From Verrucomicrobiaceae bacterium UBA1938 (GTDB lineage Bacteria > Verrucomicrobiota > Verrucomicrobiia > Verrucomicrobiales > Verrucomicrobiaceae): DNA of 64,000 nt. The notes below the pieces were generated by a model. That model searched no databases, was not told where the DNA came from, and saw only the letters and a program-made list of their open reading frames with translations. Location of the stretch: the NCBI GenBank assembly GCA_002336895.1, contig DDFC01000030.1, positions 47,326-111,325 on the forward strand. The letters are read 5' to 3'. Positions 13,440 to 42,553 of this stretch are shown here, piece after piece; the first letter of the stretch is position 1, and each line of letters starts with the position of its first letter. Position numbers and translations under genes: made by a program.

Positions 13440-13895
13440 TCAACCCCAAACATACGCCTCATCCCATCTCTGGTTATGGCGTCTCAGCAGTTCACGATAC
13501 TCGTCTTGGAAGGTGATTTTCCGATGATGCTCCTCCTGTTGCTCGATGTATCGAACCACGGCTCCTGAACGGGATTCAGACACCGAAAAGCAGCCGTATC
13601 CAGCCTGCCAGTGGAATTGGCGGAACATGCCGCCGCGCTCCTGAATCCAATTGCAGGAGACGCGTTTGATCTCCTTGACGAATTCCGCCATGGCAAGGGT
13701 GCGCGATAGTGTGGTCAGCAAGTGGATGTGATCCGCGACACCTCCGACCTGGATGGGAAGACAGTCCAATGCCTTGGCACATCCACCAAGATAAGAGTGC
13801 ACTTCGGAACGAAAAGACGCGTCGTGAAAGACCGGCTCGCGGTCCTTGGTGGAAAAGACAGTGTGGATCAAAACGCGGGCGATGGACTGGGACAT
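13440..13895 (-). CDS. tnpA: IS200/IS605-family (RAYT-like) HUH transposase TnpA
   Basis: H.VFSTK.R, DHIH (HUH), WQAGY, RYI..Q.EHH. Confidence 0.9.
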   Translation of the reverse strand: MSQSIARVLIHTVFSTKDREPVFHDASFRSEVHSYLGGCAKALDCLPIQVGGVADHIHLLTTLSRTLAMAEFVKEIKRVSCNWIQERGGMFRQFHWQAGYGCFSVSESRSGAVVRYIEQQEEHHRKITFQDEYRELLRRHNQRWDEAYVWG

Positions 13896-35657: not shown

Positions 35658-37430
35658 ATGATAGGCGACGACTACTTCGAACTTCGCTCCCGCATCGGCA
35701 CAGACCTCCTCGCCCTCGCCACCATCGTGCGCGAGACCGGCGGCGATCCCGAGTCCGCCGCCATTCTGGACAATCTCATCGCCTCCCTCAAAGAGCCCTT
35801 CGTCTTCGTCGTCGTCGGCGAGGTCAATGTCGGCAAATCCACCTTCCTCAATGCCCTCTTCGGCCAGGACTTCTCCTCCACCGGCGTCGTCCCCACCACC
35901 GGCAAGATCCTCTTCTTCCGCCACGGCGAAGACCACGCCATCGTCCCCATCACCCCCACCCTCGATGAAGTCCACGCCCCGGTGGACTTCCTCCGCGACT
36001 TCCACATCGTCGACACCCCCGGCACAAACTCCGTCGAAAACGAGCACCAGCTCATCACCGAGCGCTTCGTCCCCATCGCAGACCTCGTCATCTTCGTCTT
36101 CTCCGCCATGAACCCCTGGGGTGCCTCCGCCTGGGAGTTCCTCCAGAAAGTCCACCGCGAGTGGATGCGCCACGTCATCTTCGTCCTCCAGCAGTGCGAC
36201 CTCCGCTCCCCCGAAGAGATCCAGGTCATCACCGACTACATGGGCCAGCTCTCCCGCCAGCGCTTCGGCCGCGACTTCCCCCTCTTCCCCGTCTCCGCCA
36301 AAAAAGCCTTCCTCGCACGCGGTGCCGGCATCGAGCGCGAACGCCTCCTCCAGGAAAGCGGCTACACCGCCCTAGAGGCCCACATCTCCTCCATCGTCCG
36401 GCACAACTCCGCACGCCTCCACAAGCTCGCCAGCACCATGACCCTCGCTCGGCAGATCCTTGAGAGAATGCGTGCGCTCTACACCGCCGCCATGCAGCAG
36501 GCCCGCAGAAAGGCCGCCGTCCTCCAGGAGCTCCAGACCGAGCGCGAGCTCCAGGTCGACCGCACCCTCAAAAAAATCCTCCCCGCCCTCGACGCCACCG
36601 AGCGCGACTACCACGAATCCGTCCTCCGCGTCGCCGGCCTCGCCAGCGATGCCCTCGCCACCCGCAAAGCCTTCCAGCGCAAAGACGCCGACGAAACCGC
36701 CCCCGACTCCCCCGAAGCCACCCGCCCCCAGAGCCTCGACCACCGCCTCTTCCAGGAGCTCCAGCACCGCACCGGCGACCGCTGGCGCCAGGTCGGCCTC
36801 GTCCTTGAGGAGGACGTCCATCAGTTCGAACGCTACCTCTACGCCCAGGGCCGCGGCATCCTCTTCCCCACAGACGTCTCCCTTCCCGCCCACGACTACG
36901 GCGAAGACGAGAGCGAGCTCCGCCGCCGCTTCGGCACCCACATCGACTCCTCCCTCCGCCGCTTCGTCATCGGCCTCAAGCTCGATGAAGGCATCGAGCC
37001 CGGCCTCGAGCACGCCCGCGTCACCGCCCGCTGGCTCACACGCCTCATCGCCCCCGTCATCCTCGCCCCCGCCATCACCGCCTGGTTAGACGGCCCCGTC
37101 GGCGCCGCCATCGCCCTCGGTGCCGGCCTCCTCCTCCTCGCCGTCGTTTACCTCCTCACCCAGGTCCGCCTCAGCCAGTCGCGCAATGCCATCCTCGACA
37201 AGCTTGAGGAATCCTCCGTCACCCTTCGCGCCCTCCTCCACAAGCAGGTCACCGACGACGTCACCGCCTCCTTCACCCGCTTCCTCGATACCCTCACCCC
37301 AGCCCAGGCAGACGCCGCCCAGGCCGAGCACCAGCAGGCCGCCCAGGTCGAGCGCCTCCGCCTCCTTGGCGACTCCTTCACCACCCTCGAGCACCAAATC
37401 CAGACCCTCACCCCCGCCGGCGGCAGATAG
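35658..37430 (+). CDS. Bacterial dynamin-like GTPase
   Basis: GEVNVGKST, DTPG, QQCD G4 variant, PVSAK; helical stalk and two TM helices. Confidence 0.82.
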   Translation: MIGDDYFELRSRIGTDLLALATIVRETGGDPESAAILDNLIASLKEPFVFVVVGEVNVGKSTFLNALFGQDFSSTGVVPTTGKILFFRHGEDHAIVPITPTLDEVHAPVDFLRDFHIVDTPGTNSVENEHQLITERFVPIADLVIFVFSAMNPWGASAWEFLQKVHREWMRHVIFVLQQCDLRSPEEIQVITDYMGQLSRQRFGRDFPLFPVSAKKAFLARGAGIERERLLQESGYTALEAHISSIVRHNSARLHKLASTMTLARQILERMRALYTAAMQQARRKAAVLQELQTERELQVDRTLKKILPALDATERDYHESVLRVAGLASDALATRKAFQRKDADETAPDSPEATRPQSLDHRLFQELQHRTGDRWRQVGLVLEEDVHQFERYLYAQGRGILFPTDVSLPAHDYGEDESELRRRFGTHIDSSLRRFVIGLKLDEGIEPGLEHARVTARWLTRLIAPVILAPAITAWLDGPVGAAIALGAGLLLLAVVYLLTQVRLSQSRNAILDKLEESSVTLRALLHKQVTDDVTASFTRFLDTLTPAQADAAQAEHQQAAQVERLRLLGDSFTTLEHQIQTLTPAGGR

Positions 37431-37900
37431 GTCGGGACGCTGGTCCCCAGCCTCCGCCCAGTGTCCTCCCGCCTCCTTCTGGAAAAAAGGCAGGCAGGCT
37501 TGTCCGCAAGCCTCCGTCGCATCTCCCACAGCCTCCCTCATCCCACATCGGCAGCCGTGTCCCCTCTGCCTCAGTTCGTGAGACAGGCTGCCAGCCTGTC
37601 CTTCCAGCACCCCGCCACACTCCCACCTCCGCATCCCGCATCGCCCCCACTCCTTGCTGGGAGCGCCGGTATTCTACCGGCTCCGGAAAGCCCCGCCACA
37701 CCCTCACCCCCGCGTCCCAGCATCGCCCTCTCCGGCAATTTACAATTTTCAGTTCCCACTTCTCAGTCCCTCCCCACACCCGCGCTCCTCTCCCACACCC
37801 CAAACCCCTCCGACAACTTTAAACTTTAAACCTCAAACTTTAAACTCAGCCCTCAAACAACCGTTCAGCCACCGTCAACGACTGTAAACTCCCCCTGCCT
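37431..37900. repeat. Composite intergenic repeat cluster
   Basis: Modules shared with 39201-39790: GGGACGCTGGTCCCCAGCCTCC, GGGAGCGCCGGTATTCTACCGGCTCC, AAACTTTAAAC, CACCGTCAAC. Confidence 0.7.
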
Positions 37901-37909
37901 CTTCGTCCC

Positions 37910-39190
37910 ATGACTCCCGCGATGCTCAAAGCCGCCCTCATCGCCCAGGCCCGTGCCCTCGGCTTCAGCGACTGCCGCATCGCCCCCGCCCAGCCCGCCG
38001 CCCACCGCGCCCTCTTTGAGCAATGGCTCGCCGAAGGCAAACACGGCGACATGGCTTGGCTCGCCCGCACCCCCGAGCGCCGCACCGATCCCACCCTCGT
38101 CCTCCCCGGCGCCAAATCCGTCATCCTCCTCGCCCTCAACTACTACCAAGGCGGCACCCCCTATCCCCAGGACCAATCTTCCTCCGACTCCTCCTCCCCC
38201 GAGCGCAGCGAGTCCTCCGAAGCTCAAAGAGCGAAGGACGGACCCCCTCCGCCATCCAGCACCGAGCCCCCACCCTCCAGCATCGCCCCATCGCCCTCAC
38301 CTCCGTACTGGGAGCGCCGATATTCTACCGGCTCCGGAAGCCCCGCCACATCCATCCCCTCCGCACCACCCCCAGCCTCCGATCAACCACCGTCAACCAC
38401 CGTCAACAACAGTAAACCACCGTCAACTCCGTTCCGAATAGCCCGCTACGCCTGGAACAACGACTACCACGACCTCATCGAGTCCAAGCTCCGCACCCTC
38501 ACCGACTTCCTCACCGCCCACGGCGGCACCCAGCGTCCTTACGTCGATACCGGCCCCGTCCTCGAGCGCGACTTCGCCAGCCTCGCCGGCCTCGGCTGGG
38601 GAGGCAAAAGCACCATGCAGATCCACCGCCACCTCGGCACCTGGTTCTTCCTGGCCGACATCCTCACCACCCTCGATCTCCCCCCAGACGCCCCCGGCCC
38701 CGACCGCTGTGGCACCTGCACCCGCTGCATCACCGCCTGTCCCACCCAGGCCATCACCGCCCCTCGCAGCCTCGATGCCCGCCGTTGCATCTCCTACCTC
38801 ACCATCGAAAGCAAAGGCCCCATCCCCATCGAATTCCGCCGCGCCATCGGAGACCGCATCTATGGGTGCGATTCCTGCCTCGACGCCTGCCCCTGGAACC
38901 GCCACGCCCAGACCTCCCACGAGGCCACCTTCCAGGCCCGCACCACCATATTCCAGCACACCCTGCGCGACTTCCTCTCTCTCACCGACGACACCTTCCG
39001 CGCCCTCTTCGCCAAATCCCCCATCAAGCGCATCAAACGCCCCGCCTTCCTTCGCAACATCTGCGTCGCCCTCGGCAATGTCGGCACCCCCGCCGACCTC
39101 CCCGCCTTAGAAGCCGCCGCCCAGGACGAGCACCCCCTCATCACCGAACACGCCCAATGGGCCATCGCCGAAATCCGCTCCCGCCACTGA
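37910..39190 (+). CDS. queG: Epoxyqueuosine reductase QueG with in-frame low-complexity insertion
   Basis: G.HG.M.WL, RIARYAW..DYH, VDTGP.LER, CG.C..CI.ACPT and YGCD.C...CPWN Fe-S motifs. Confidence 0.93.
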   Translation: MTPAMLKAALIAQARALGFSDCRIAPAQPAAHRALFEQWLAEGKHGDMAWLARTPERRTDPTLVLPGAKSVILLALNYYQGGTPYPQDQSSSDSSSPERSESSEAQRAKDGPPPPSSTEPPPSSIAPSPSPPYWERRYSTGSGSPATSIPSAPPPASDQPPSTTVNNSKPPSTPFRIARYAWNNDYHDLIESKLRTLTDFLTAHGGTQRPYVDTGPVLERDFASLAGLGWGGKSTMQIHRHLGTWFFLADILTTLDLPPDAPGPDRCGTCTRCITACPTQAITAPRSLDARRCISYLTIESKGPIPIEFRRAIGDRIYGCDSCLDACPWNRHAQTSHEATFQARTTIFQHTLRDFLSLTDDTFRALFAKSPIKRIKRPAFLRNICVALGNVGTPADLPALEAAAQDEHPLITEHAQWAIAEIRSRH

Positions 39191-39200
39191 CCGCAGGTCA

Positions 39201-39790
39201 CCCTTCGTAGCTCAAAGAGCGAAGAATGGGCCAATCCTCCTCCTCGCGCAGCGAATCCTCCGAAGCCTTGGCGCAGGAAGAAGCCACCGCAAACGCGCCT
39301 CACCGCCTCCGTACTGGGAGCGCCGATGTCCACATCGGCTCCGGTCCCTCCGCCACACCCACACCTCCGCACCACCTCCAGCCTCCTCCTCCCCATCGTC
39401 CTCGTCCTCGTCCTCCTACTCCTACTCCTACTCCTACTCCTACTCGTCCTCGTCCTCGTCCTCGATCCATCCCCTCCGCCATCCCCCTTCGCCCCGCGCC
39501 TCCCAGCCCAGGTAGGGAGGCTGGTCCCCCAGCCTCCGCCGAGCGTCCTCCTCCCCCCCCAGCATCCATCCATCCACGTCTCAGCGCCACCATCCGTAAG
39601 CGGGCCATTCCTGCCCCGTCACCAAAGCCCTCCCAGCCGCTCTCAAAAACCACCGTCAACCACCGTCAGCAATCGTTCAGCTATCGTTCAGCTATCGTTC
39701 AGCTATCGTTCAGCTATCGTAAACGGCGCGTCAGCGCCCCACCGCCTCCGGCCAACTTAAAACTTGAAACCTTAAACTTGAAACTCCCTC
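39201..39790. repeat. Composite intergenic repeat cluster including hexamer and 11-mer tandem arrays
   Basis: Same modules as inside and upstream of queG; (CTCGTC/CTCCTA)n at 39395-39466; (CAGCTATCGTT)x5 at 39667-39721. Confidence 0.75.
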
Positions 39791-39804
39791 TACGTCCCCC
39801 GTCC

Positions 39805-39832
39805 TTGACAGCCCTCCCACCCCTGCTAACAT
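39805..39832 (+). promoter_or_regulatory. Sigma70-type promoter of tRNA-Cys
   Basis: TTGACA-N16-TAACAT with TG extended -10. Confidence 0.7.
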
Positions 39833-39854
39833 CCCTGGCTCTCAATTCGAGAAC

Positions 39855-39929
39855 GGCGAGGTAGCAAAGTGGTAATGCACTGGTCTGCAAAACCGGTATG
39901 CGCGGGTTCAATTCCCGCCCTCGCCTCCA
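39855..39929 (+). tRNA. tRNA-Cys(GCA), copy 1
   Basis: Full cloverleaf, GGCGAGG/CCTCGCC acceptor stem, GCA anticodon, U73, encoded CCA. Confidence 0.95.
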
Positions 39930-39941
39930 CTTCCCGACAAC

Positions 39942-40178
39942 ATGGCTGCCATCCCGGTGGAAGAACTCGTCTATCAGTCAGACCCAGCCTTTTTGAATCG
40001 CATTTTGCTGCTGCCGCCAGAATCCCTGCGCTTGCTCTGCCCTGTCTGCCACGCCCCTCTCTTGTTTGCGCCTACGTGGAAACGCGCCCGCGAGCTGAGA
40101 GTGCATCCGGGAATCTACTGCCAGGTGGACCTCAAACATTGTATCGCGATGTTTGAACTCGCTCCAGAGTCAGAATAA
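39942..40178 (+). CDS. Small hypothetical protein with CPVC...C...HC
   Basis: 78-aa ORF 12 nt after tRNA; possible zinc ribbon. Confidence 0.45.
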   Translation: MAAIPVEELVYQSDPAFLNRILLLPPESLRLLCPVCHAPLLFAPTWKRARELRVHPGIYCQVDLKHCIAMFELAPESE

Positions 40179-40216
40179 CCGGCCAGTCTGGCTGCTTTTC
40201 AACAAACGCAGTCCGC

Positions 40217-40245
40217 TTGACCATGCGTCAAGTTTAGTTTACATA
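40217..40245 (+). promoter_or_regulatory. TA promoter with overlapping palindromic operator
   Basis: TTGAC-CATGC-GTCAA palindrome covering -35 TTGACC; TACATA 17 nt downstream. Confidence 0.6.
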
Positions 40246-40272
40246 TGAGGCGGTCGCTCTACCACCTCCGCT

Positions 40273-40608
40273 GTGCTTCAACCCGGTTCATACGAAGTCC
40301 TCATCTTCCGGCACGCCTCAGATGAAAGCCCCTACCTCGACTGGTTGGAATCTCTCGACTGGAAGATGCAGGAACGCATTTCCTCACGCGTAGCCCGCAT
40401 GAAAAAAGGGCAGTTTGGCGACTGCAAAGCTCTCGCTCCCAGCCTCTACGAACTGCGTCTTTTTTTCGGACCCGGCTACCGGGTTTACTTCGGCCAGCAC
40501 AGGGGCAGGACCATCATCCTCCTCGCCGGCGGAGACAAATCCACCCAGAGCAAAGACATCAAACAAGCCCGCCAATACTGGAAAACATACTTGGAGGACC
40601 ATCCATGA
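40273..40608 (+). CDS. RelE/ParE-superfamily addiction module killer (TIGR02683-like)
   Basis: WLESLD...RI..R..RM..G.FGDCK.....YELR..FGPGYRVYF...LLAGGDKSTQ.KDI..A..YW. Confidence 0.9.
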   Translation: MLQPGSYEVLIFRHASDESPYLDWLESLDWKMQERISSRVARMKKGQFGDCKALAPSLYELRLFFGPGYRVYFGQHRGRTIILLAGGDKSTQSKDIKQARQYWKTYLEDHP

Positions 40609-40958
40609 AAGCATCCAAAAAAACCAGCACCCTCTCCCACGATGAAGTCAGGCTCCGGCACCTCAGCGACCCCAAGCGCGCCAGATACGCCATCAAGCTC
40701 GCCCTCGAAGAGTTCGAGCAGGACAACGACATCGACATGCTGCTCGACACCCTGCGCCTCGTCGCCCAGGCCCAGGGCGGCCTCGCCTCTCTCGCACGCA
40801 AAACAGAAGTCAGCCGCCAGGCCCTGCACGAGGCCCTCTCACCTCAGGGAAACCCGCGCCTGCGCACCTTCCAGAGCGTCCTCGGCTCCCTCGGCCTCCG
40901 CATGTCCGTCAGGCCTGCCCGCCCCACCGCCAAAAAGCCTGCCCGCTCTGCAGCCTGA
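40605..40958 (+). CDS. Addiction module antidote (TIGR02684-like HTH)
   Basis: GGLASLARKTEVSRQALHEALSPQGNPRL.TF..VL.SLG; ATGA overlap with toxin. Confidence 0.9.
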   Translation: MKASKKTSTLSHDEVRLRHLSDPKRARYAIKLALEEFEQDNDIDMLLDTLRLVAQAQGGLASLARKTEVSRQALHEALSPQGNPRLRTFQSVLGSLGLRMSVRPARPTAKKPARSAA

Positions 40959-41000
40959 ACGCACGCTCAGCATGCTTCGCCGCCTTCGCAATTCGAGAAC

Positions 41001-41075
41001 GGCGAGGTAGCAAAGTGGTAATGCACGGGTCTGCAAAACCGGCAGGCGCGGGTTCAATTCCCGCCCTCGCCTCCA
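41001..41075 (+). tRNA. tRNA-Cys(GCA), copy 2 (G28:G42 mismatch, function uncertain)
   Basis: 3 differences from copy 1 over 75 nt. Confidence 0.75.
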
Positions 41076-41113
41076 CTCCACCCCCACAAGCGTTTCACCG
41101 CAGAAAGCCCTCG

Positions 41114-41193
41114 AAGGGAGCGCGGACACTCTTGTCCGCTTCTGCTCTTCAGCAATCAAAGGGAGCGCGGACACTCCTGTCCGCTTCTGCTCT
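41114..41193. repeat. Tandem pair of AAGGGAGCGCGGACACTCYTGTCCGCTTCTGCTCT
   Basis: 35-nt direct repeat with 45-nt period and internal GCGGAC/GTCCGC hairpin. Confidence 0.8.
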
Positions 41194-41226
41194 CCGCAGC
41201 TCTGCTGCCCGTTGATCACTCACTCA

Positions 41227-41312
41227 GTCGCTCGCCGGCGCTCGATTGAAACTCGCATTACAGACCGACACCCTCGTCTTGAAGGCCAACGGCCTTCGTC
41301 TTTCAGCCCAGG
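41227..41312. repeat. Solo fragment homologous to left end of the Y1 element
   Basis: GTCGCTCGCC...GAAAC...GAAGGCCAACGGCCTTC..TTTCAGCCCAGG matches 13282-13359. Confidence 0.75.
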
Positions 41313-41833
41313 AATGCCGCGTGTCCTCCGAAGCTCGTAGAGCGAAGGAGGAAGCTTTAGCGAGTGCTCCCCTGGGCTCCGGCATCCAATCCAGTCAGCA
41401 AACCCAGCCCCCCTCCACACGCCGCCCGGCCCCAGCATGCCTGCCCTTCGTAGCTAGAACTGGTCTATAAGGAAGCACTGAACAAATGAACGCGGAGCAG
41501 TTTGGAAACCGCAGAGCATTGACTTTCAGGCCTCATCTCTGCGGTCTTCTAATCTCTGCGTTGTTAAATCAGTGTTTCCTTGGCAAAGAACGGGCGTCTC
41601 CTCCGCCATAGCGCCGCAGGCCGCCCCACTCTGCGTCCCGCTCTCAAGGCATGGCACCGCCACTCGCCCCCCATCTCCCCACTCGCAGCCACATTGGGGT
41701 TGCCCCACCACCGCACCCTGCGCGGCAAACCTCGCCATCTCCCACGTCCCAGGCTCCTTCCTCAGGCCAAAGCATTACGAAGCTCTGGCAAAAGTGCGAA
41801 CCATGATCTAACTCTCTCACCTCACTGGGTGAT

Positions 41834-42406
41834 ATGAGCAATGCCTACACCGTGCTTTGGAACAGCGACCGCATCAGGATCGCCCGGAAGCACGACCTCA
41901 TCGGCAGGAGCATCGACTTCCTCTTTGGCGGCCCTCACACCACCCAGCCCAGTTTCATCCGCGCCGGCGTCAAGGCCGGAGAGATCATCTATCCCGTTGC
42001 CGTTCGAGACGGCGCCCTTCACATCCTCTCCCAGATACGCATCAGGGCCATCCTCACGGTCGATGACTTCATCGCCGAGCACCCCGATCTCTACCCTCCC
42101 GCAGAGCGTCAGGGGCGGCGGGCCTTCGAGATCCTCGACCTCGGCGTCCAGCTCCACCCCTGGCTGCGCGCCCTCAACTGGACCGGTTCAGATCACGTCT
42201 TGCTCGCACAGAGCTCCACCCCCTTCAGCCTCGAAACCGTCCTCCCCTCCGAGATGCTCACGCGCATGACCCTCCGTTTCAACAAAGTCGAAAGGCCCGT
42301 CAGCGGCGTCGCGGACGGCCGCCTCACCACCACCGTCGGCCTCCAGGGCATCCATCGGTTGTCATTCTCTTCTGCATGGGAGTTTGCCAGCCTGTTTCAG
42401 GCATGA
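41834..42406 (+). CDS. Hypothetical protein
   Basis: 190-aa ORF with host-like C-ending codons between tRNA copies 2 and 3. Confidence 0.65.
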   Translation: MSNAYTVLWNSDRIRIARKHDLIGRSIDFLFGGPHTTQPSFIRAGVKAGEIIYPVAVRDGALHILSQIRIRAILTVDDFIAEHPDLYPPAERQGRRAFEILDLGVQLHPWLRALNWTGSDHVLLAQSSTPFSLETVLPSEMLTRMTLRFNKVERPVSGVADGRLTTTVGLQGIHRLSFSSAWEFASLFQA

Positions 42407-42553
42407 GCCCAGACAGGGAAAGAGTAACGGGGAAAGGAGCGCAAACACGGGAGAGTGAAGCATCGAAAGCACGCGAAGGGAGCGCGGAGATTCGCTTCGC
42501 GGCTGCGTAGCCTCTCCGCGTCGGCTACCATCCCCGTATCTCCATTCAAGAAC

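What the first reader, a model, noticed from the sequence alone, without database searches (positions are those of the whole stretch)
38150..38434. Intergenic repeat modules inserted in frame inside queG
Seen: residues 81-175 (95 aa, Ser/Pro-rich) lie between NYY and RIARYAW, where QueG normally has a short loop. The DNA is made of three modules also found in neighbouring intergenic DNA. A: CCAATC..GCGCAGCGA.TCCTCCGAAGC (also ~39230-39285, partly 41323-41351). B: CTCCGTACTGGGAGCGCCG..CGGCTCCGG..CCGCCACA at 38301-38350 (also 37657-37700, 39307-39357). C: CAACCACCGTCAAC at 38384-38430 (also ~37868, ~39648). The frame and all Fe-S motifs are intact. Known: Rickettsia palindromic elements set a precedent for repeats translated inside enzymes. 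Inference: selfish repeats colonising a permissive surface loop and generating new coding sequence.
Basis: partly seen in the sequence, partly recalled or inferred. Interest (0 to 1): 0.75.

Follow-up and report, generated by a model that had tools for sequence, protein, structure and literature searches.

The report
Intergenic repeats translated inside QueG loop
A tRNA-modification enzyme gene (queG) of a Prosthecobacter bacterium carries a real, in-frame 95-residue loop built from the genus's own intergenic repeat DNA, and related species hold 25 to 296 residues at the same spot; this is a new example of a known phenomenon (repeats translated inside genes, as in Rickettsia).

Summary
queG (window 37910-39190, +) matches TIGR00276 in two pieces. 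They are split by a 285-nt, Ser/Pro-rich, in-frame insert (38150-38434) where most Verrucomicrobiaceae have 8-11 residues.

- **Repeat origin.** The insert has 40 matches of at least 45 bits elsewhere in the genome; shuffled copies have none. Its best matches are the two intergenic regions flanking queG.
- **Clade pattern.** All 12 members of one well-supported Prosthecobacter clade in the tree, and the closest relative G056, carry inserts of 25-296 aa here. These are mosaics of the same modules. In one genome the same module is read in different frames.
- **Recent change.** G056 (~93% nt identity) differs by two in-frame indels.
- **Selection.** The QueG core is under purifying selection (dN/dS 0.08-0.32). 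QueH is absent and QueA is present.
- **Structure.** The insert is predicted disordered. It lies at the start of the "Cbl-insert" loop of solved QueG.
- **Other lineages and genes.** Unrelated lineages carry their own inserts at this loop, two of them clearly hairpin-forming. Two other genes in this genome also carry modules in frame.

No link to tyrosine transposases was found. The copying mechanism is unresolved, though local recombination or template switching looks likeliest. This is a new member of the RPE/intragenic-REP kind.

The parts
37910..39190 (+). queG (epoxyqueuosine reductase), 426 aa with stop; one open frame through the insert
   Evidence: TIGR00276 370.8 bits (cut-off 200), matched in two stretches
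37910..38149 (+). QueG N-terminal core (aa 1-80, ends NYYQ), first part of the cobalamin-binding domain
   Evidence: pLDDT 71-96
38150..38434 (+). In-frame 285-nt (95-codon) insert, Ser/Pro-rich, 48% C, predicted disordered
   Evidence: (pLDDT below 50 for residues 79-184)
38176..38244 (+). Module Y+A (CCAATCTTCC...GCGCAGCGAGTCCTCCGAAGC plus hairpin TCCTCCGAAGCTCAAAGAGCGAAGGA), read as SSDSSSPERSESSEAQRAKDG; 68/68 nt identical in closest relative G056
   Evidence: hairpin -15.4 kcal/mol, z -1.6
38252..38364 (+). Block homologous to upstream intergenic 37600-37713 (81.5% over 119 nt). Contains module B hairpin CTGGGAGCGCCGATATTCTACCGGCTCCGG (38306-38338), read as PPYWERRYSTGSGSPAT. The segment 38244-38383 that holds this block is absent from G056.
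38380..38430 (+). Module C: about 48 nt of tandem 10-mers (AACCACCGTC), read as QPPSTTVNNSKPPSTP; dispersed family, unstructured
   Evidence: 84-96% matches on many contigs; dG 0
38435..39190 (+). QueG C-terminal core (aa 176-426): rest of the cobalamin-binding domain, 2x[4Fe-4S] ferredoxin domain, HEAT-like domain
37600..37713 (+). Upstream intergenic copy of the B block (hairpin loop GTATTCTAC; no other genomic B copy recovered in the scans shares this loop type with the insert)
37856..37889 (+). Upstream intergenic module C/D7-like copy, ending about 20 nt before the queG start codon
39201..39266 (+). Downstream intergenic A hairpin (CCCTTCGTAGCTCAAAGAGCGAAGAATGGG, shares the CAAAGA loop with the insert copy) followed by module Y
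39306..39386 (+). Downstream intergenic module B copy (84% over 82 nt to the insert)
39383..39475 (+). Hexamer-array module E (CTCGTC/CTACTC units). Absent from this genome's insert but present in frame in the queG inserts of G056, L021, L023, L026, L028 and L031 (read as SSSSSYSNSSSI.P, PRPRPPTRTRPRS or LPIVLVLLLELVLD)
39516..39537 (.). Module D19 perfect hairpin GGAGGCTGGTCCCCCAGCCTCC; translated in two different frames inside the queG insert of L031/G014
39648..39672 (+). Downstream intergenic module C copy (96% over 25 nt)
41316..41349 (+). A-family hairpin copy after the second tRNA-Cys

Best explanation
**What it is.** The segment is a genuine, translated-in-frame expansion of one variable loop of QueG, the start of the 'Cbl-insert' loop. 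It is built from short repeat modules that make up much of the intergenic DNA in this Prosthecobacter lineage.

**Shown**
- An ancestor of one Prosthecobacter clade already had an enlarged loop.
- Since then the region has turned over quickly by gain, loss and duplication of modules at the DNA level.
- The changes seen are multiples of three, so selection keeps the C-terminal 250 residues in frame.
- The C-rich strand of these modules is nearly free of stop codons in all three frames.

**Inferred**
- New sequence enters mainly by homology-assisted copying between the loop and other copies of the modules, above all those in queG's own flanking intergenic regions. Candidate routes are unequal or ectopic recombination, gene conversion, and template switching at hairpins. 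Dedicated transposition looks less likely.
- The peptide is a tolerated disordered loop with no function of its own.
- QueG stays active as the only epoxyqueuosine reductase in the genome.

**Confidence.** The figure of 0.72 applies to the whole statement. The descriptive part (real, repeat-derived, in-frame, clade-wide hypervariable loop in a gene under selection) I put at about 0.9. The local-copying mechanism I put at about 0.5.
For: **Real insert in an intact gene.**

**Repeat nature.** The insert has 40 genomic matches against 0 in shuffles. The modules occur in 46 of 61 genomes of the genus, including genomes whose queG has no insert.

**Clade history.** In a core-protein ML tree, one clade (support 100/99) has inserts of 25-296 aa in all 12 members. 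Sister groups have 8-18 aa.

**DNA-level events.**
- L031 reads module B as VLGAPASCRLRF, where this genome reads it as YWERRY.
- L031 also reads D19 and E in two or three frames.
- G056 (~93% nt identity in the core) differs by a 96-nt module and a net 138-nt block, both in frame.

**Local copying.**
- Genome-wide, the best matches of insert 38252-38380 are the upstream and downstream intergenic regions of queG.
- The hairpin-loop variants (TATTCTACC in B, CAAAGA in A) are shared only with those neighbours.
- In L031 the 3' part of the insert is collinear with that genome's own upstream intergenic region.
- The E module in G056 is flanked by a 28-40-nt duplication, not a short target-site duplication.

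**Selection.**
- Core dN/dS is 0.08-0.32.
- Core substitutions are concentrated at third codon positions, while those in the modules are even across positions.
- QueH is absent and QueA present.

**Tolerance.**
- Residues 79-184 have pLDDT below 50 and no secondary structure.
- The site maps to the loop between chain residues 107 and 124 of 5d08, the start of the Cbl-insert Tyr77-Asp104.
- Sense frames of the clade's inserts have 0-2 stops; antisense frames have up to 9.
Against: - Translation of the insert and enzyme activity are therefore inferred.
- One clade member (L032) has the N- and C-terminal parts in different frames inside a ~740-nt insert. This could be a pseudogene, or an indel error in a long-read MAG.
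- The Cbl-insert loop supports the HEAT domain in B. subtilis QueG (PMC5175355), so tolerance of up to 296 extra residues is not self-evident.
- Local copying versus transposition is not resolved. Similarity to the flanks could also reflect copying from the gene into the flanks, or shared ancestry.
- Modules B and C diverge less (6-15%) than the synonymous rate of the core (dS 0.2-0.3). The A block is 68/68 identical in G056, where about 4 differences would be expected. This hints at nucleotide-level constraint or recent conversion, not pure neutrality.
Confidence: 0.72

Rival explanations
1. Classical mobile elements: the modules are non-autonomous transposable elements (REP/REPIN, MITE or RPE-like). 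They are inserted by a transposase acting in trans, and the QueG loop simply survives hits that would be lethal elsewhere.
For: - Hairpin modules (A, B, D19) are dispersed over many contigs and across many species.
- The genome has 19 Y1_Tnp (IS200/RAYT-type) hits, 5 of them full length.
- Unrelated elements, including a 96-nt near-perfect palindrome (dG -64 kcal/mol, z -7.2), sit at the same loop in other families.
- At least two other genes in this genome carry modules in frame, with AAA_25 and PSD1 domains each split in two.
- REPs inside genes are documented, and a Verrucomicrobium (O. terrae) is REP-rich (PMC3733652).
Against: - None of 13 Y1_Tnp loci examined has the queG-locus modules within 1.2 kb, apart from one 26-nt match. 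Only one locus has B copies within 3 kb.
- Copy numbers are low (about 7-40).
- Module C is a non-palindromic tandem decamer with no fold.
- The one well-resolved recent gain (E in G056) is flanked by a 28-40-nt duplication, not a short target-site duplication.
- The best matches are the immediately adjacent intergenic regions.
Confidence: 0.25
2. Functional element: the modules inside queG are kept because they act at the nucleotide level (for example RNA hairpins affecting mRNA stability or processing, or protein-binding sites), or because the added peptide has a role in QueG (tethering, regulation, partner binding).
For: - Modules B and C diverge less than synonymous sites of the core and show no third-position excess.
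- The B stem arms are nearly unchanged in four species (one stem substitution, in this genome), while most differences fall in the loop or outside the stems.
- The A block is 68/68 identical between G000 and G056 against ~93.5% identity in the core.
- Every clade member in the tree keeps some insert, and none has reverted to 8-11 aa.
- Module C copies lie 6-25 nt upstream of the start codons of several genes, including queG and queA.
Against: - Content and length differ wildly between close relatives (25 to 296 aa), and no module is universal. L028 and L027 lack C; L030 has only C.
- The same module is read in different frames.
- The peptide is low-complexity and predicted disordered.
- The numbers of substitutions are small, and gene conversion from other copies would also slow apparent divergence.
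- The test for module C sitting upstream of starts was not significant against random positions (18/43 against 33%).
Confidence: 0.15
3. Decaying or split gene: queG is being inactivated in this clade. The open frame is a by-product of stop-poor C-rich repeats, or the gene is expressed as two parts.
For: - All three sense frames are nearly stop-free across the inserts, so an open frame alone proves little.
- L032 has a frame shift inside its insert.
- The insert sits in a loop that contacts the HEAT domain (PMC5175355).
Against: - The C-terminal 250 residues stay in frame in the 12 clade members in the tree and in G056, despite many independent indels.
- Core dN/dS is 0.08-0.32 within the clade.
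- All Fe-S cysteines and other invariant residues are intact.
- QueH is absent and QueA present, so QueG is the only route from oQ to Q.
- There is no start codon near the start of the C-terminal part.
Confidence: 0.05
4. Assembly artefact: repeat-induced misassembly joined intergenic repeat DNA into queG.
For: Draft assembly of 43 contigs; the insert is repetitive; reads could not be checked.
Against: - Homologous inserts occur at the identical codon position in more than 13 independent assemblies from different studies, including an isolate genome (P. fluviatilis KACC 12649).
- Closest relative G056 shares flanks and a 68-nt identical block.
- The length is an exact multiple of three and the junctions are clean.
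Confidence: 0.02

Closest known systems
Rickettsia palindromic elements (RPEs; Ogata et al. 2000, as summarised in PMC10969869)
   Same: Short repeats that also occur between genes are found in frame inside conserved enzyme genes. The genes stay intact, and the added peptides are thought to sit where the fold tolerates them.
   Different: - No sequence relation was tested or is expected (different phylum).
- RPEs are single ~100-150-bp palindromic units with a conserved encoded peptide, hitting many genes. Here one loop holds a mosaic of several small families, including a non-palindromic tandem decamer and a hexamer array.
- The mosaic changes between close species from 25 to 296 aa.
- The same family is read in different frames.
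REP / REPIN elements inside genes (GTAG- and CGTC-tagged REPs, Di Nocera et al. 2013, PMC3733652)
   Same: 20-40-nt hairpins that are mostly intergenic and occasionally lie wholly inside ORFs. The paper reports REPs in the PVC superphylum and calls the Verrucomicrobium O. terrae REP-rich. The A family contains a GTAG in most copies.
   Different: - Copy numbers here are low.
- No RAYT association was found.
- The GTAG lies inside the A hairpin, not as an end tag.
- Modules come as ordered mosaics, not as single or paired REPs.
Intragenic ERIC/BOX/MITE insertions and cyanobacterial small dispersed repeats (ERIC, BOX and Anabaena MITEs as reviewed in PMC10969869; the cyanobacterial nested small repeats are recalled from my own knowledge and were not checked here)
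   Same: Small repeats fuse in frame with host ORFs, and elements nest within elements to give mosaics.
   Different: Those cases are scattered over many genes. Here the notable feature is a single hot loop with clade-wide turnover and similarity to the gene's own flanking intergenic DNA.
Canonical QueG (B. subtilis 5D08/5T8Y; S. thermophilus 5D6S)
   Same: Same family and domain order: cobalamin-binding domain, two [4Fe-4S] clusters and a HEAT-like domain. All cluster cysteines are present.
   Different: B. subtilis has 16 residues at this point of the Cbl-insert loop, and most Verrucomicrobiaceae have 8-11. This protein has 95, and a relative has 296.

Membership tests
QueG, tRNA epoxyqueuosine(34) reductase (TIGR00276) | Profile score above the curated cut-off | tested here: met
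   370.8 bits against cut-off 200, E 5.6e-111, in two stretches split by the insert
QueG, tRNA epoxyqueuosine(34) reductase (TIGR00276) | Eight cysteines of the two [4Fe-4S] clusters | tested here: met
   C267, 270, 273, 277, 293, 320, 323 and 327 are present and invariant in 38 sequences; Fer4_16 E 9e-23
QueG, tRNA epoxyqueuosine(34) reductase (TIGR00276) | N-terminal cobalamin-binding domain (DUF1730) and C-terminal HEAT-like domain | tested here: met
   PF08331 E 1.8e-18 (two stretches); HEAT_2 weak, E 5.8e-4, below the gathering score; 5d08 aligns over 177-422, including the HEAT region
QueG, tRNA epoxyqueuosine(34) reductase (TIGR00276) | Converts oQ-tRNA to Q-tRNA | not testable with these tools
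   Only context is available: QueA present, QueH absent; core dN/dS 0.08-0.32
In-frame intragenic repeat elements (RPE-like phenomenon) | The inserted DNA belongs to repeat families with other, mainly intergenic, copies in the same genome | tested here: met
   40 matches of at least 45 bits against 0 in shuffles. Of 73 pattern hits for modules A, B, C and D19, queG's own copies and one AAA_25 copy were clearly inside recognisable genes. A wider BLAST screen added one more gene.
In-frame intragenic repeat elements (RPE-like phenomenon) | Host ORF stays open and conserved on both sides | tested here: met
In-frame intragenic repeat elements (RPE-like phenomenon) | Element is palindromic or hairpin-forming | tested here: inconclusive
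   A folds (-15.4 kcal/mol, z -1.6). B has a 9-bp bulged stem by eye, but the RNA fold gives z -0.06. C has no fold. Independent inserts in L059 (z -7.2) and L034 (z -2.9) are clear palindromes.
In-frame intragenic repeat elements (RPE-like phenomenon) | Sequence homology to the Rickettsia RPE families | not tested
   No RPE sequences were compared, so membership of the RPE families themselves is not claimed; only the phenomenon is the same.
REP/REPIN mobilised by RAYT | REP copies flank a RAYT (Y1 transposase) gene | tested here: not met
   19 Y1_Tnp hits. No A/B/C/D19 copy lies within 3 kb of any except one locus. Flanks of 13 Y1 loci share only one 26-nt match with the queG locus.
REP/REPIN mobilised by RAYT | GTAG or CGTC tetranucleotide tag at one end of the stem-loop | tested here: inconclusive
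   Most A copies contain CGTAGC, but inside the hairpin arm. B and D19 have no such tag.
MITE | Terminal inverted repeats and short target-site duplications | tested here: inconclusive
   The only resolved recent gain (E in G056) is flanked by a 28-40-nt duplication of module Y, not a short target-site duplication. C modules often occur as inverted pairs elsewhere, but the queG copy is single.
Intein / intron | Self-splicing element with conserved splice-junction motifs or a catalytic RNA fold | tested here: not met
   No Pfam intein/Hint/LAGLIDADG hit. Rfam found only the two tRNA-Cys genes in 36500-42500. The insert is low-complexity and hypervariable.

The most novel reading that the evidence does not exclude
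The QueG Cbl-insert loop is more than a passive sink. It may be a standing cassette site that keeps exchanging sequence with the gene's own 5' and 3' intergenic regions, and the modules inside the coding region may be maintained at the nucleotide level because they act in cis as hairpins or protein-binding decamers on queG mRNA or DNA. On this reading a stretch of an enzyme gene doubles as a piece of regulatory intergenic DNA, with the protein merely tolerating its translation. The hints are a 68/68-nt identical A block against ~93.5% core identity, module divergence below the synonymous rate with no codon-position pattern, retention of some insert in every clade member, and module C also lying just upstream of the queG and queA start codons.
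Probability: 0.12. Interest if true: 0.7.

Novelty: new member of a known kind. Interest (0 to 1): 0.42.

Why it matters
- **Evolutionary series.** This is a well-resolved natural series, running from 8-11 aa through 18 and 25 aa to 296 aa. It shows how non-coding repeat DNA becomes translated sequence inside a conserved metalloenzyme without killing it.
- **Structural point.** A loop that props up the tRNA-binding domain of QueG can absorb hundreds of disordered residues.
- **Annotation.** Such inserts split profile matches and can be mistaken for misassemblies or pseudogenes in Verrucomicrobiota MAGs.
- **Repeat biology.** The close similarity of the insert to the gene's own flanking intergenic DNA, and the long flanking duplications at recent indels, offer a handle on how these small, low-copy modules spread without an obvious transposase.
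- **Limits.** It does not open a new class of system. The phenomenon is known from Rickettsia and from REPs inside genes, and unchecked AI notes from earlier in this scan report similar cases in other Verrucomicrobia.

Tried and rejected
- **Rfam.** A scan of 36500-42500 at E up to 1 found only the two tRNA-Cys genes. No known RNA family covers modules A-C.
- **13-mer counts.** Genome-wide counts along the locus barely separated the insert from the coding flanks (mean 3.5 against 2.3-2.7), because the families are diverged and low-copy. BLAST with shuffle controls was used instead.
- **Single-sequence nhmmer.** It was too insensitive for these short modules.
- **RAYT/IS200 link.** 19 Y1_Tnp hits, but no association with the modules; rejected as shown, not excluded.
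- **Module C as a 5' leader.** 18 of 43 clusters have an ORF start within 45 nt downstream, but 33% of random positions do too with my crude ORF definition. Not established.
- **L029 as an independent insertion.** Its flanks match its insert-less sister right up to the insert (0.97 and 0.92 identity). Yet its loop begins GGTAYP like the clade's, so a short-patch import is likelier than convergence.
- **Intein, intron, second start codon.** No support.
- **First regex fuzzy scan.** It timed out and was replaced by a numpy mismatch scan.
Full report
**1.

The ORF at 37910..39190 (+) encodes 426 aa. It matches the QueG equivalog TIGR00276 with 370.8 bits (cut-off 200). The match falls in two stretches, and residues 176-421 align to profile positions 88-336. 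Pfam finds a split DUF1730 and the Fer4_16 double-cluster domain.

The sequence between NYYQ (77-80) and RIARYAW (176-182) is 95 residues, window 38150-38434. It is 64% S+P+T+A and 48% C on the sense strand.

- **Module A.** 38192-38244 matches 39202-39266 and 41316-41349.
- **Module B.** The homology is longer than noted. 38252-38364 matches the upstream intergenic 37600-37713 at 81.5% over 119 nt (E 6e-23). 38300-38380 matches the downstream 39306-39386 at 84% over 82 nt.
- **Module C.** 38385-38409 matches 39648-39672 at 96%, and 38385-38417 matches 37856-37889.

This is far beyond chance. The insert has 40 matches of at least 45 bits elsewhere in the 6.87-Mb genome. Thirty dinucleotide shuffles gave none, and same-length pieces of the queG core matched only themselves. 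The eight Fe-S cysteines are intact and invariant.

**2. Organism and comparative picture**

Record titles of the closest relatives place the window in Prosthecobacter (Verrucomicrobiaceae).

Across about 100 QueG loci, the loop between NY[YF]Q and RIARYAW is 8-11 aa in most Verrucomicrobiaceae. A maximum-likelihood tree of the core protein, with the insert removed, gives one clade with support 100/99. All 12 of its members carry enlarged loops:

| Locus | Insert (aa) |
|---|---|
| L030 (P. fluviatilis) | 25 |
| L024 | 50 |
| L027 | 53 |
| L028 | 61 |
| L023 | 75 |
| L003 | 90 |
| L026 | 92 |
| L001 (this genome) | 95 |
| L021 | 99 |
| L022 | 120 |
| L025 | 125 |
| L031 | 296 |

- The sister lineage L044 has 18 aa.
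- Close relatives within the clade differ greatly, for example 95 against 25 aa and 90 against 61 aa.
- One further relative, L032, has a ~740-nt insert with the two halves of the gene in different frames. This is either a pseudogene or an indel error in a hybrid long-read MAG.

The inserts are mosaics of recurring modules:

| Module | Read as |
|---|---|
| A | ERSESSEA(Q/R)RAKDG |
| B | PPYWERRY.TGSG |
| C | QPPSTTVNN.QPPSTP |
| E | SSSSSYSNSSSINPLRHPPAP |
| F | DGRKEAQRGAKEE |
| G | HPASSIQPPASS |
| D19 | GREAGPPASAERP |

No module is universal.

**3. The events are at the DNA level**

In L031 module B is read as VLGAPASCRLRF instead of YWERRY. D19 appears twice in two frames (VGRLVPQPPPSV and GREAGPPASAERP). 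The hexamer array E appears in three frames (SSSSYSNSSS, PRPRPPTRTRPRS and LPIVLVLLLELVLD).

The closest relative found, G056, has about 93% nucleotide identity in the core. Its insert is 85 aa. Compared with this genome:
- it has an extra 96-nt E module, flanked by a 28-40-nt duplication of module Y;
- it lacks the 140-nt segment that holds the B block (net 138 nt);
- both changes are multiples of three;
- the A block between them is 68/68 identical.

The modules are not derived from queG. They occur in 46 of 61 sampled genomes of the genus, including genomes whose queG has the short loop.

**4. Where the sequence comes from**

Genome-wide, the best matches to the central part of the insert are the two intergenic regions flanking queG. 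The particular hairpin-loop variants (TATTCTACC in B, CAAAGA in A) are shared only with those neighbours. In L031 the 3' part of the insert is collinear with that genome's own upstream intergenic region.

The genome has 19 matches to the Y1 transposase family (IS200/RAYT type). The modules do not flank them. Rfam has no family for the modules.

My best reading is therefore homology-assisted copying among module copies, especially local ones, by ectopic recombination, gene conversion or template switching. Selection then removes out-of-frame products. Transposition in trans remains possible (rival 1).

The C-rich sense strand of the clade's inserts has 0-2 stops in any frame, while the antisense frames have up to 9. 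Orientation and length are therefore the only hurdles.

**5. The gene looks functional and the loop tolerant**

- Core dN/dS between this gene and 11 clade members is 0.08-0.32, and core substitutions are concentrated at third positions.
- QueH, the alternative oQ reductase, is absent. QueA, which makes oQ, is present.
- AlphaFold2 with a 38-sequence alignment gives pLDDT below 50 and no secondary structure for residues 79-184. The flanking core elements are well predicted, though the Fe-S-binding stretches also score low (mean pLDDT 65.5).
- By alignment to 5d08, and using the numbering of Dowling et al. (PMC5175355), the insertion point is the start of the 'Cbl-insert' loop (Tyr77-Asp104). 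In B. subtilis QueG the HEAT-like tRNA-binding domain rests on this loop. It is a lineage-variable extended loop, not a random surface turn.

**6. The loop is a recurrent sink, and queG is not the only gene**

Outside the clade, unrelated inserts sit at the same position.
- L059 (Chthoniobacteraceae): 32 aa encoded by a 96-nt near-perfect palindrome (dG -64 kcal/mol, z -7.2).
- L034: 31 aa from a hairpin (z -2.9), with a sister that has 8 aa.
- L094: an 11-bp perfect stem.
- L073: 42 aa.
- L029: its flanks match its insert-less sister right up to the insert, yet its loop resembles the clade's, which suggests a short-patch import.

In this genome two other genes carry modules in frame. An AAA_25 protein (C28:289734-291203) has an A hairpin in frame, and its AAA_25 match is split in two. 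A PSCyt1/PSCyt2/PSD1 protein (C39:48588-51707) also has modules in frame, and its PSD1 match is split in two.

**7. Loose ends that keep a more interesting reading alive**

- Modules B and C differ by 6-15% between clade members, below the synonymous divergence of the core (dS 0.2-0.3). Their changes are spread evenly over codon positions.
- The A block is 68/68 identical to G056, where about four differences would be expected.
- Either gene conversion from other copies or nucleotide-level constraint could explain this. The counts are small.
- Module C copies lie 6-25 nt upstream of several start codons, including queG and queA. My crude test against random positions was not significant.

**8. 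Comparison with what is known**

The phenomenon matches the Rickettsia palindromic elements (Ogata et al. 2000, as summarised in PMC10969869) and REPs found inside genes (PMC3733652). The latter paper also notes that a Verrucomicrobium (O. terrae) is REP-rich.

Three things are particular here:
- a single loop holding a mosaic of several small families, one of them non-palindromic;
- clade-wide turnover from 25 to 296 aa;
- the kinship of the insert with the gene's own flanking intergenic DNA.

Earlier notes of this scan describe similar in-frame repeat hot spots in other Verrucomicrobia. They are unchecked AI notes. I used them only to temper the novelty score. I found no paper on Prosthecobacter repeats.

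**Verdict**

This is a new member of a known kind, of moderate interest.

Noticed in passing
L026:4300-4560 (Prosthecobacter MAG, queG 3' end): After the queG stop there is a short repeat module (AACTTTAAAC type). It is followed by a second copy of the last ~18 codons of queG (PLISEHAHWAIAEIRARH). A module insertion near the 3' end therefore seems to have duplicated flanking gene sequence, like the long duplication around the E module in G056.
   Followed up: partly
L032:2935-4730 (Prosthecobacter MAG_MBR_H125.48): queG has a ~740-nt insert in which the N-terminal and C-terminal halves are in different frames. Both frames stay open for ~850 nt of overlap. This is either a frameshifted pseudogene or a long-read indel error.
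   Followed up: partly
G000 C20:41462-41595, next to queA at C20:40478-41446 (-); also window 37856-37889 before queG: An inverted pair of module C decamer arrays lies about 9-16 nt upstream of the queA start codon, and a C-like copy lies ~20 nt upstream of the queG start. Other C copies sit 6-25 nt upstream of long ORFs whose N-termini resemble (from memory, not tested) PurT, GlgE, Vsr and FolK. C may be a leader or promoter-proximal element, but my statistical test was not significant.
   Followed up: partly
G000 C39:48588-51707 and C28:289734-291203: Two more genes carry intergenic-type modules in frame. One is a PSCyt1/PSCyt2/PSD1 protein, with a module in the linker and another splitting PSD1 (SPSPHLIVSLSS, also seen in the queG insert of L025). 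The other is an AAA_25 protein with an A hairpin splitting the domain.
   Followed up: yes
window 13536-13877 (-) and 18 other places in G000: The genome has 19 matches to the Y1 (IS200/RAYT-type) transposase family. They include five full-length ones (one in this window) and a multi-copy 388-aa ORF family with only the N-terminal half of the domain. Three module B copies cluster next to one of the latter at C33:194177-194501.
   Followed up: partly
window 39855-39929 and 41001-41075: Two tRNA-Cys(GCA) genes lie 1.1 kb apart (91% identical over 103 nt including flanks). Each is followed by different small genes, one pair looking like a toxin-antitoxin pair at 40273-40958. Another first-reader note covers this.
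   Followed up: no
window 39383-39475 and G000 C6:89344-89522: There are long arrays of very short units: a hexamer array CTCGTC/CTACTC downstream of queG, and a 13-copy decamer array of module C on contig C6. These low-complexity arrays have defined, conserved ends, so they behave as modules and not as simple slippage products.
   Followed up: no
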